A DNA stretch of 64,000 nucleotides from Eledone cirrhosa (Eukaryota): positions 806,001-870,000 of the forward strand of contig OZ024766.1 in the NCBI GenBank assembly GCA_964016885.1, given 5' to 3'. The notes beneath the pieces were generated by a model that was not told the origin of the DNA, made no database searches, and saw only the letters and a list, made by a program, of their open reading frames with translations. Below are positions 9,255-24,100 of the stretch, in pieces; position 1 is the stretch's first letter; every line of letters starts with the position of its first letter. The position numbers and the translations under genes are program-made.

Positions 9255-9443
9255 TAGGAAAATGTTTAACCCTGACGGCAGGGCTCAAGCCGTTTCGACG
9301 GCTAAGTCCAGAAATAGTCGTCGAAACGGCTTGAGCTCTACCGTCGGGGTTAAACATTTTCCTATTACCCACTCTACTGCCCTAAGTATTGAGTACTCTG
9401 GTGCGTTATGGTCCACCTGGTTCCTTACCACATTTGCTTCGTT
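9255..9443 (+). mobile_element. Hairpin-plus-tail element, copy 1 (probable Penelope-like pLTR derivative)
   Basis: About 50-bp inverted arms (9255-9365) plus a shared tail; flanked by (TA)n. Confidence 0.75.
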
Positions 9444-10187
9444 ATATATATATATATATATATATATATATATATATGTGTGTATATATATATATAGAGA
9501 GAGAGAGAAAGAATATTTATTATTTGTACAATTGCTGCTTTCACCCTTCTACGCACTTACTATATATATATGTATATATGTATATATATATATAATGTGC
9601 ATACACGTACATATATATATGTGTGTGTGTATGTATGTACGTATATATATATATATATATATACACAGTATGCGTTGTTAGTGTCTTCGTTTAAGAAGTA
9701 TTAAATATACAACGATCCTTCGTATTAGGTCTAAGCTATGTAAACAATGAATGTGGTAATTTCCGTCTAAATAGCCTTTGGTATATATATATATATATAT
9801 ATATATATATATATATATACACACGCTTCCTTTGGTATATATATATATATATATATAATATAGCGCATAATAAAATACATGGAACTCTTTTAACCATCTT
9901 TTGATTTTATATTATTTATACTCCAGTCCTACAAACTGTAGAGTGCTTCTTATCCGATATCTGCATTGCTTTATTGTACTACAATAAAACTCACCTCCTA
10001 CACACACACACATATATATATATATATATATATATATATATATATATATATATATGTAAAAGTTCTATTTAAATTGTTGGGATACAACAAGCAAATATTT
10101 TTATAACTGATATAAAGCACTCAACAAATTATTGGAGTAAAAATACGATATATTAACAAATGGAAACTATATTTATAAAACCATATT

Positions 10188-21100: not shown

Positions 21101-24100
21101 ACTTTATTTCACATTGCTCCAGTTTACTCAGCTGTAGAAATGTGATGATAGGGACAGTGTGGACTGGGTGCTTTTTGTTGTGACACCTACATGACCACTT
21201 TACAGTGTGGACTGGGTGCTTTTTGTTGTGACACCTACATGACCACTTTACAGTGTGGACTGGGTGCTTTTTGTTGTGACACCTACATGACCACTTTACA
21301 GTGTGGACTGGGTGTTTTTTGTGACACCTACATGACCACTTTACAGTGTGGACTGGGTGGTGTTTGTTATGACACCTACATGACCACTTTACAGTGTGGA
21401 CTGGGTCCTTTTTGTTTTGACACCTACATGACCACTTTACAGTGTGGATGGGTGCTTTTTGTCGTGTCTCCTACATGACCACATAGTAAAGTCCACCCGG
21501 GGTGACAGCATCTGACAAGCCAAATGCCATCCAGTGGAGTAAAATACATCCAATGTATTGCACAAGTCTCTGAACAAGGGCAAGTAACTCGGCTCGTCCT
21601 AATTCCAATAAAACTAAAATGATCAAAGGGTGAAAACTCAAGCAAGTGAATGAATTGGGATATGTAAAACATTCTTTGCTGTGGGAGAGTGTGGGGGCAT
21701 ATTGTCTATATGCTTCAGCTTCAGCTTGTACCCGTGGGGGGGTCGGGTCTTCTGTATATATATATATATATAACGGAGGAGATGTGGTAAGGAACTAGAT
21801 GGAGCATAACGCACCAGAGTACTCAATACTTAGGGTAGTAGAGTGGGTAATAGGAAAAAGTATGACCCCGACGACAGAGCTCAAGCCGTTTCGACGTCTA
21901 TTTCTATATACGACTATCTATTTCTATATACCAACCTTGAGCTCTGCCGTCGGGGTCATACTTTCTCCTACATATATATATATATATATTATTCAAAATG
22001 TTAACAAATGAAAAAATTCTCATCATCAAAATATATATTTTATTATACGTATTTCAAAGGTACAATGGTGTTTAGGTACGTTTTCATCAGACAAAATATA
22101 AGATTTGATATGTGACATACCGCTACATCTTCATCATCATCATCGTTTAACGTCCATTTTCCATGCTAGCATGGGTCTGGGCGGGAATTGTGCCACTTGA
22201 GGCTAGATTGGTTGTCTTGCTCGTATAGGACTGTCTGGCGGGTTTTCTACGGCTGGATGCCCTTCCTAACACCAACCACGTTTACAGTGTGGACTGGGAG
22301 CTTTTTTTTGTCGTGACACCTACACGACCTCACCTATTTAGGACTGGATGTTGTGGTACCAACATAACATTACATCGAAAGGGGTGGTGTAGATAGGGGT
22401 GGCGGTAGGGGTAGTGGGACGGGGTGTATTTTGGTTAAGAGGTGCCTGACTGTATATATATATCTATCTATATATATATATATATATATATATAATCATA
22501 TATTGTCCCACCCTTGCAAGCAGGGAAAAGCGGACGTAAAATGATGATGATGATATTGAGTTATAAACTCGAAATAGTCTTTTACATTCAATTCCAGTAT
22601 TGGCAGTCATATATATATATATTAATACAAAATATTAATAAATTAATTAATTTATTAATATTTTGAATTAATATTAATAACTCCAGAAAACTTTTTTTGC
22701 TGTTGAGTGCTTCTAATCTATTGTAAAACTATATTCATTGATTTATCAATGAACCTTGTTAAACTTTTGGTTATATATATATATATATATTAATTCAAAA
22801 TATTAACCAAAATAGACATTCGTGTGATCAAGTATATTTTATTATACATATTTGAGAGGTACTGAGCTATCTTCAACAGTACGTCCTCATCAGATAAAAT
22901 AAGATGAAGCATGACATACCCTGACATGGTAGATGGTTGAGTGCTTCCAATCTATTGTAAAACTCATTCTTTGATTTATTCATTGAACCTTGTTTAACCT
23001 TTAAATATATATATATATATATATGTATATATATATCAATCGCATATATTTATCTCATCTCTCTTTCTCCCTCTGGCCCTTTTTGTGAACAATCTATATT
23101 TGCACCTCCTCATGGCACCTATCTTCTCTCTACTTCAGAATACAATCCGATGGCTACAGAAGAGATTGTACAACATTTTAATGAGCTACGACAAGACATT
23201 GTGTTGCTTTATGAACTGAAATTAGCCCTGGCTAATTGTGAATACGAACTGCAGACGTTAAGGCATCAGTTTGAAAGTCTCACCCCTGCTGGAAAGGTAA
23301 GTCCCTGGTTGTTGTTGTTCAGGCATAGTGTATCTTGGACTACATTATCTAATGTGTCCTGCCTTATATACAGACACAGTGTACCTAGGACTACATTATC
23401 TAATGTGTCCTGTCTTATATACAGACACAGTGTATCTAGGACTACATTATCTAATGTGTCCTGCCTTATATACAGACACAGTGTACCTAGGACTACATTA
23501 TCTAATGTGTCCTGTCTTATATACAGACACAGTGTATCTAGGACTACATTATCTAATGTGTCCTGTCTTATATACAGACACAGTGTATCTAGGACTACAT
23601 TATCTAATGTGTCCTGTCTTATATACAGACACAGTGTATCTAGGACTACATTATCTAATGTGTCCTGTCTTATATACAGACACAGTGTATCTAGGACTAC
23701 ATTATCTAATGTGTCCTGTCTTATATACAGTCTATCTAGGACTACATTATCTAATGTGTCCTGTCTTATATACAGACACAGTGTATCTAGGACTACATTA
23801 TCTAATGTGTCCTGTCTTATATACAGACACAGTGTATCTAGGACTACATTATCTAATGTGTCCTGTCTTATATACAGACACAGTCTATCTAGGTGGTCTG
23901 TATATGACTTCACTAATTTGTAGGGGGAGTAAGGTTTTCCAGGAGTCATGGTTACAGGCTGGCGTTCATTTTAGGATATTTGCTGAGGTTGAGCAGACTG
24001 ATTGGAGCTCCGAAGCCATAGTATCTAGAATAAGGACGGGTTTGAAGAAGTTTAGGGAGCTGCTTCTTCTGCTAACAAAGAAGGGTTTCTCCCTGCATAC

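What the first reader, a model, noticed from the sequence alone, without database searches (positions are those of the whole stretch)
9255..21970. Hairpin-plus-tail elements whose inverted arm appears re-synthesised at each insertion and which keep half a hammerhead
Seen: three copies (9255-9443, 10641-10843, 21772-21970) built as (TA)n-[arm][arm']-~78-nt tail-(TA)n. The outer arm differs between copies yet is complementary within each: taggaaaatgtttaaccc/gggttaaacattttccta, taggaacgagtaggacccc/ggggtcctactcgttccta, taggaaaaagtatgacccc/ggggtcatactttctccta. All three inversions stop at the same TAGGA, merging into the target TA run. The arm reads gtc-GAAA-cggct-(loop)-agccg-TC-gggg, i.e. the 3' half of a hammerhead (stem III and GUC site) without CUGAUGA. 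Inference: cDNA folds back at the ribozyme stem II and self-primes second-strand synthesis, giving a stereotyped Penelope-type inverted end.
Basis: partly seen in the sequence, partly recalled or inferred. Interest (0 to 1): 0.72.

Follow-up and report, generated by a model that had tools for sequence, protein, structure and literature searches.

The report
Penelope stubs copied from both ends
These hairpins are short dead-end insertions of a very abundant Penelope-type jumping gene, and their two arms were likely copied separately from one RNA at the two cut DNA ends until the enzyme ran off the RNA's predicted capped start, rather than by fold-back, which would make the unexplained origin of these elements' mirror ends and terminal repeats testable.

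Summary
The three copies are real. They are stubs of a Hydra-clade Penelope-like element with 26,606 exact tail matches in this genome; full-length relatives carry RT plus GIY-YIG and a whole U3-A8 hammerhead. Arms match within a copy (0.68 edits against 2.93 between copies), so they are made per insertion. Fold-back at stem II is not supported: its predicted junction occurs 0 times genome-wide, and many left arms have no partner to be copied from. Insertions pair one end at site 1 with one at site 2, 80 nt apart (30 of 30). Of 109 arms reaching position -133, 94 stop within 15 nt, at AGTCC inside loop II, often with an extra G. This likely marks the capped RNA start and explains the half ribozyme. 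When one arm ends at the hammerhead cut, its partner did not pass it (0 of 13; control 8 of 14), and two insertions carry one private jump in both arms, pointing to one RNA template. The architecture is published; the mechanism is inferred from DNA only. This scan's earlier notes reached the two-site and capped-start readings on other DNA of this genome.

The parts
9255..9304 (-). Copy 1 inverted (left) arm, from start site 1 (TAGGA) to position -131
9305..9364 (+). Copy 1 right arm; begins exactly at A(-140) of AGTCC, the predicted RNA start; 3' half of the hammerhead, predicted cut between 9345 and 9346
9365..9444 (+). Copy 1 80-nt tail between start sites 1 and 2; holds the first bulged hairpin (about 9371-9394)
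10642..10703 (-). Copy 2 inverted arm, site 1 to GGACTAA (-142)
10704..10766 (+). Copy 2 right arm from TTTAGTCC (A-140 = 10707); predicted cut between 10747 and 10748; carries a G-to-A change that the left arm lacks (after insertion)
10767..10846 (+). Copy 2 80-nt tail
21936..21970 (+). Copy 3 inverted arm (element on the - strand), site 1 to about -115
21906..21935 (.). Copy 3 junction filler: TA-rich pieces with a repeated TATATAGAAATAGA
   Evidence: read from the sequence
21851..21905 (-). Copy 3 right arm from about -135; predicted cut between 21870 and 21869
21771..21850 (-). Copy 3 80-nt tail

Best explanation
The three elements are 5'-truncated, head-to-head insertions of a Hydra-clade Penelope-like retrotransposon into (TA)n, and their two arms are likely two separate target-primed cDNAs copied from one RNA, which mostly stop at its predicted capped 5' end inside the hammerhead and are then joined. 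Shown: a 3,578-nt unit with one RT + GIY-YIG ORF; two fixed ends 80 nt apart, one of each per insertion; a bulged hairpin predicted 4-6 nt beyond each end; a wall of inner ends at AGTCC (-140/-139) with extra G, GG or A-run letters; matching of both arms down to sub-lineage. Inferred: the endonuclease cuts both strands of the TA run; each 3' end primes reverse transcription at one of the two sites, which lie 60 and 140 nt from the RNA 5' end; the enzyme runs off the cap (adding C or CC) and the two short cDNAs are joined by 0-5 nt microhomology or filler. Stubs keep half a hammerhead because transcription would start in loop II. Long arms and partial tandems would need a jump from the 5' end to the 3' copy of the repeat; this last step is the least certain.
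For: One tail per insertion: 29 of 30 tailless ends lead to a tail end within the locus, the 30th in the longer locus L068; ORF copies with the tail on the left lack it on the right and the reverse; 22,566 site-1 ends against 26,606 tails (different patterns). Own arm 0.68 edits against 2.93, lowest of 10,000 permutations 2.19, n = 57 of 88; sub-lineage agrees in 25 of 26 long pairs, chance 0.27. Wall: 94 of 109 arms reaching -133 end by -147, 2 end in -148..-200, 13 go beyond. Extra G before AGTCC 958 against A 275; L416 and L424 read TA target-GG-AGTCC with no partner. A-runs at the inner end of either arm. Ends at the hammerhead cut: 57 against 20 at control position -102; partner passes the cut in 0 of 13 against 8 of 14, p = 0.002. 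L184 and L385/L386 carry one private jump from the cut site in both arms. Two start sites on both strands in vitro for another PLE (PMC11167929).
Against: No RNA-level test was possible. 14 of the 30 extra-G loci read TTCTGG|AGTCC, where the G can come from the partner arm. In unselected samples 7 arms start at -98..-100 with a partner that passes the cut (L104, L106, L207, L242, L254, L326, L336), most with microhomology. Exceptions to one tail: two tails in L364 and L216, none in L334. L185 joins two subfamilies and 3 of 57 short copies have different arm types. 5' ends of the upstream repeat in ORF copies do not pile at -140 (-73 to -127 in 7; beyond -200 in 12). A small hairpin in loop II has TTTAGTCC as its 3' strand, so a stall is possible. 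Central deletions of palindromes after insertion could create some asymmetry. Some rows are mis-anchored by gapped alignment.
Confidence: 0.72

Rival explanations
1. Two target-primed cDNAs as above, but the wall is a reverse-transcriptase stall or an annealing hot spot at the small hairpin in loop II; long arms are read-through from the 3' repeat and no strand transfer is needed.
For: RNAfold pairs GGCTAAA with TTTAGTCC in loop II of L202; arm discordance is raised at -153..-141 (28 of 338 against 128 of 3,822 sites), as at a quasi-palindrome; upstream-repeat ends in ORF copies do not pile at -140.
Against: Ends lie after the hairpin's 3' strand has been copied, not at its base; extra G or GG; solo arms end at GGAC/GGACT; two jumps leave from exactly -140; TTAGTC/TCAGTC resembles an initiator (consensus recalled).
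Confidence: 0.15
2. First reader's model, close to the self-priming proposed in PMC3846280: one cDNA folds back at hammerhead stem II (or another palindrome) and primes its own second strand; later deletions make the asymmetry.
For: Arms match within copies; some junctions sit on short palindromes such as GAGCTC and TTCGAA; L364 is a perfect two-tailed palindrome; shared private junctions in both arms fit copying in part.
Against: 0 stem-II fold-back junctions; tailless arm longer in 23 of 71, up to 2.6 kb against 0.3 kb; solo arms and arm-less partners; in L184 each arm holds sequence the other lacks; no reason for a second strand to stop 80 nt early and join the target.
Confidence: 0.07
3. 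The hairpins are a non-autonomous, MITE- or retrozyme-like family that is copied whole, arms inherited from hairpin masters.
For: High copy number; arm types follow subfamilies.
Against: Junctions differ from copy to copy; stubs lack the second hairpin, which lies beyond site 2, the ribozyme's 5' half and any sequence upstream of the start; the same ends flank inserts up to 3.6 kb.
Confidence: 0.04

Closest known systems
Hydra clade of C-terminal-endonuclease Penelope-like elements (Craig et al. 2021, PMC8557442; passages, section 11 and supplement part 2 read)
   Same: RW[K/R] and DKT motifs, CxCX5C linker, no CCHH, CxxC and CxH around the conserved E/N, hammerhead near the 3' end, (TA)n target, inverted 5'-truncated copy.
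   Different: Unit is 3,578 nt (listed members 1.1-3.0 kb); hammerhead has a U3-A8 or C3-A8 core and a 30-nt loop II, unlike all Hydra hammerheads in their File S2, including Hydra-1_oBim; no tree was built.
PLE inverted pseudo-LTR with one-sided tail (PMC3846280 passages; PMC8557442 passages)
   Same: Head-to-head inverted copy, tail on one end only, partial tandems.
   Different: Tail 80 nt rather than 30-40; the published proposal is self-priming on an antisense template, which the data here do not fit; strict pairing of the two ends and the wall are not in the passages read.
PAc Poseidon element of Anolis in vitro (PMC11167929; parts 1-2 of 4 read)
   Same: Both target strands cut and extended; two internal start sites that define the tail; AT-rich target; start in a stem-loop.
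   Different: No strand difference in start site was seen there and hammerhead cutting was dispensable; here each insertion pairs one site with the other and a minority of ends sit at the cut.
U3-A8 hammerheads of Cercyon PLEs, Schistosoma mansoni (PMC4209133; part 1 of 4 read)
   Same: U3-A8 core, long stem II with an unpaired base at its start, pairs of motifs on opposite strands.
   Different: Here stem III is a stable 4-6 bp hairpin, and much of subfamily A has a C3-A8 mismatch (46 of 99 matches).
Retroviral minus-strand strong-stop DNA and strand transfer (recalled)
   Same: Priming near the RNA 5' end, run-off at the cap, a 40-nt repeat (-140..-100) at both RNA ends if the 3' hammerhead cuts.
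   Different: Primers are the two cut target ends, not a tRNA; no RNase H is known in PLE RT (recalled); transfer itself is not shown here.

Membership tests
EN+ Penelope-like elements | Single ORF, RT followed by GIY-YIG endonuclease | tested here: met
   790-residue open frame in L195 with FDIES, YHDD (YRDD in other copies) and YIG; Atlas neighbours carry RVT_1, GIY-YIG, HTH_animal; Pfam and PDB gave no significant hit.
EN+ Penelope-like elements | Partial tandems (pLTR), inverted 5'-truncated copy, one-sided tail | tested here: met
EN+ Penelope-like elements | Type I hammerhead in the pLTR | tested here: met
   Motif by eye and script: ACCCC-YUGA-N-AA-G...C-GAAA-CGGC...GCCG-UC-GGGGU, N7 free across subfamilies. 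Rfam did not detect it at E <= 1. Cleavage not assayed.
Hydra clade | RWK motif and DKG changed to DKT | tested here: met
   RWR at 87, DKT at 167
Hydra clade | CxCX5C linker; CCHH absent; CxxC and CxH in the EN | tested here: met
   CNCPDGSIC in L061 and L129 (the L195 copy has F at the last C); one C only before YIG; CNLC at 720, CKH at 748
Hydra clade | Insertion into (TA)n | tested here: met
Hydra clade | Placement in the Hydra clade in an RT tree | not tested
   No reference proteins were aligned
Neptune / Nematis clades | CX2-5CxxC linker and CCHH motif | tested here: not met
Naiad / Chlamys | N-terminal endonuclease, no canonical hammerhead | tested here: not met
   EN is C-terminal and a hammerhead is present
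Non-LTR retrozymes | Head-to-tail tandem units each with a whole hammerhead | tested here: not met
   Stubs are head-to-head and hold half the motif

The most novel reading that the evidence does not exclude
Penelope-like elements replicate by a retrovirus-like strong-stop route: a dimeric enzyme primes two cDNAs from the two target ends on a single RNA near its 5' end, each runs off the cap (or the hammerhead-cut end) and must jump to the RNA's 3' end, which the hammerhead trims to leave a 40-nt terminal repeat; success rebuilds the pseudo-LTR, failure leaves these hairpins. Five mis-jumps to unit +815..+855, one to +97 and one oligo-A junction at the cut site (L394) would be its footprints.
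Probability: 0.33. Interest if true: 0.78.

Novelty: new member of a known kind. Interest (0 to 1): 0.5.

Why it matters
[quoted passage not shown] A family with over 20,000 insertions gives countable footprints that argue against self-priming, for a sense capped template read twice, and for hammerhead cutting in vivo in a minority of templates. It names exact nucleotides to test. The architecture itself is ordinary for these elements.

Tried and rejected
1) A systematic A/G difference between arms in the first 30 loci suggested arms from different templates; it was query bias (30 loci chosen without that position all have G). 2) Fold-back at stem II: 0 matches. 3) RNA test: no RNA holder listed; no reads were laid. 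4) Rfam found no hammerhead, Pfam and PDB no significant match. 5) Splice-acceptor reading of TTTAG|TCC: jump junctions vary and lack a donor GT. 6) A spike of ends at the cut site is weak in unselected samples (10 of 190 arms at -98..-100); it shows only in the no-microhomology class. 7) A pile of full-length 5' ends at -140 was not seen. 8) Searches had script errors and were redone. 9) Six paper searches found no strong-stop or strand-transfer model for PLEs; subscription papers such as Arkhipova 2006 and Evgen'ev and Arkhipova 2005 were not readable, and bioRxiv supplements were closed. 10) Why five jumps land at +815..+855 is unexplained; no AATAAA lies in +790..+900.

Full report
Observation. 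The three copies are at 9255-9444 (+), 10642-10846 (+) and 21771-21970 (-), built as described. Each left arm is 1-3 edits from its own right arm and 5-10 from the others over the outer 35-36 nt. The window is C27:806001-870000 of a 3.0-Gb genome. The family is large: 26,606 exact matches of a 31-nt tail pattern, 22,566 of a tailless-end pattern, controls 0 and 3. Positions below are relative to the last base of the tail (-1): site 1 is -80, the predicted ribozyme cut lies between C(-100) and G(-99), and the A of AGTCC is -140.

What it is. Longer copies run upstream through about 1.1 kb of 3' UTR into an ORF. Full-length copies are partial tandems with a 3,578-nt unit. [quoted passage not shown] RWR, DKT, a CxCX5C linker (intact in L061 and L129), no CCHH, CxxC and CxH, and (TA)n targets match the Hydra clade as defined in PMC8557442 section 11; no tree was built. 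Its hammerhead differs from those listed for Hydra families in that paper's File S2. The whole ribozyme is ACCCC-YUGA-N-AA-G, a long stem II with a 30-nt loop, then GAAA, stem III and GUC-GGGGU. Of 99 script matches (4 false, some loci twice), 43 have U3-A8 and 46 C3-A8; position 7 takes all four letters across subfamilies. U3-A8 is published for Schistosoma PLEs (PMC4209133). Rfam did not detect the motif.

Arms are made per insertion. Of 88 copies chosen by tail only, 57 had both variable boxes; left arms were 0.68 edits from their own right arm and 2.93 from others, lowest of 10,000 permutations 2.19; 50 had the same type, 3 different, 4 ambiguous. Upstream sub-lineage markers agree in 25 of 26 long pairs, chance 0.27. 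Later mutations are not mirrored: the A in copy 2's right arm is absent from its left arm and from 30 loci chosen without that position.

Not fold-back. A cDNA folding at stem II would leave the left arm running into the native 5' strand and loop II; that pattern has 0 matches. Fold-back of the tail strand requires the tailless arm to lie within the tail arm, yet it is longer in 23 of 71 short junctions, shorter in 24 and equal in 24 (some rows mis-anchored), and is 0.6-2.6 kb against about 0.3 kb in L061, L068 and L069. In one search, 7 of 72 rows have a full left arm joined to a tail piece with no complementary arm, and 5 run straight into TA. Deletion after insertion could explain some of these but not the untemplated A-runs at the inner end of either arm.

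Two fixed starts. 57 of 75 left pieces start exactly at -80. 30 of 30 tailless ends pair with a tail end, and ORF copies put the tail on either side but on one side only; exceptions are L364 and L216 (two tails) and L334 (none). A 4-bp, 2-nt bulge, 3-4-bp hairpin is predicted 6 nt after site 1 and 4 nt after site 2 in most of 15 full-length copies (lead from note e1-8804728). This fits the two internal start sites and two-strand extension shown in vitro for an Anolis PLE (PMC11167929).

The wall. Of 163 arms, 109 reach -133; 94 end by -147, 2 in -148..-200 and 13 go beyond. Copy 1's right arm starts exactly at -140. All 30 arms scored at -143 continue with T, not the templated A. A G before AGTCC, absent from the template, occurs 958 times against 275 for A; 14 of 30 such loci could take the G from the partner, but two read target TA-GG-AGTCC with no partner. 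I infer a capped RNA start (cap-templated C and the initiator-like TTAGTC/TCAGTC are recalled knowledge; a start inside the pLTR is published for D. virilis Penelope, PMC2377424). That would explain the half hammerhead. A stall at a loop-II hairpin remains a rival. No RNA run was available.

One RNA, and the cut site. Arms starting at G(-99) after two purines number 57, against 20 at control position -102. Among the 30 loci read, the 13 with an adjacent inverted partner all had partners stopping at or before -101, five at -98/-99; in the control 8 of 14 passed (p = 0.002). Left out were loci with no partner, colinear or jump junctions, and one unclear control. Against this, 7 arms in unselected samples start at -98..-100 with a longer partner, mostly through microhomology. 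L184 and L385/L386 carry the same private jump from -99 to an ORF position in both arms, and in L184 each arm holds sequence the other lacks. Five insertions jump from -140 or -99 to unit +815..+855 (the genome-wide pattern found four of them and no others); L394 has an A-run at the cut site in a 1.5-kb arm. These suggest both cDNAs read one RNA and that the enzyme jumps from RNA 5' ends to 3' ends. A correct jump would be seamless, so transfer is inferred, not shown; upstream-repeat ends in ORF copies do not pile at -140.

Comparison and novelty. Inverted copy plus one-sided tail is published PLE architecture (PMC8557442, PMC3846280; passages). Its cause is open: self-priming on an antisense template was proposed and pseudo-LTR regeneration was called unexplained. 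Six searches of the open library found no strong-stop model for PLEs; subscription papers were not searched. Papers seen: PMC11167929 parts 1-2 of 4; PMC8557442 passages, section 11, supplement part 2; PMC3846280 and PMC2377424 passages; PMC4209133 part 1 of 4; bioRxiv 10.64898/2026.07.22.740005 part 1 of 5. Earlier unreviewed notes of this scan reached the two-site and capped-start readings on other DNA of this genome; they are not evidence. Verdict: new member of a known kind, with useful mechanistic footprints; interest 0.5.

Noticed in passing
window about 50,300-64,000 and L366: A (CCCTAA)n telomere-type array of about 20 kb continues into the next 10 kb with CCCCAA variants and is absent 10 kb further on, at 0.86-0.88 Mb of a 22.4-Mb contig: an interstitial array or a scaffold join.
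   Followed up: partly
window about 24,750-24,840 (-); L006 240-430: A second hammerhead-like family with a CTGATGA or CTGAAGA core; in L006 it forms a tail-plus-palindrome in a TA run.
   Followed up: no
unit +815..+855 (L134, L136, L184, L192, L200): Five independent jumps land in one 40-nt stretch of the ORF near the FDIES codons; cause unknown.
   Followed up: partly
subfamily A, hammerhead core: Sub-lineages with a C3-A8 mismatch multiplied beside U3-A8 ones (41 against 24 matches), so cutting in cis may be dispensable.
   Followed up: partly
position -153..-141: The two arms of one insertion differ 2.5 times more often here than elsewhere, with AAATGT/ACATTT flips.
   Followed up: partly
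L185; L248: Insertions whose ends come from two subfamilies, possible use of two RNAs.
   Followed up: no
window 10,364-10,413 and 9,820-9,836: Short inverted pair ACACGCTTCCTTTGG / CCAAAGGAAGCGTG around a TA run, with a second half-copy nearby.
   Followed up: no
window 10,860-11,125: A SINE-like repeat ending in (ATG)n directly after copy 2; similar sequence flanks other loci (label recalled).
   Followed up: no
window 6,491-7,246 and 14,038-14,646: Inverted 92-94% alike blocks with a 49-nt period.
   Followed up: no
L066 190-2123; L195 7116+; L200 7093+: ORFs of other Penelope-like families lie within a few kb of these insertions.
   Followed up: no
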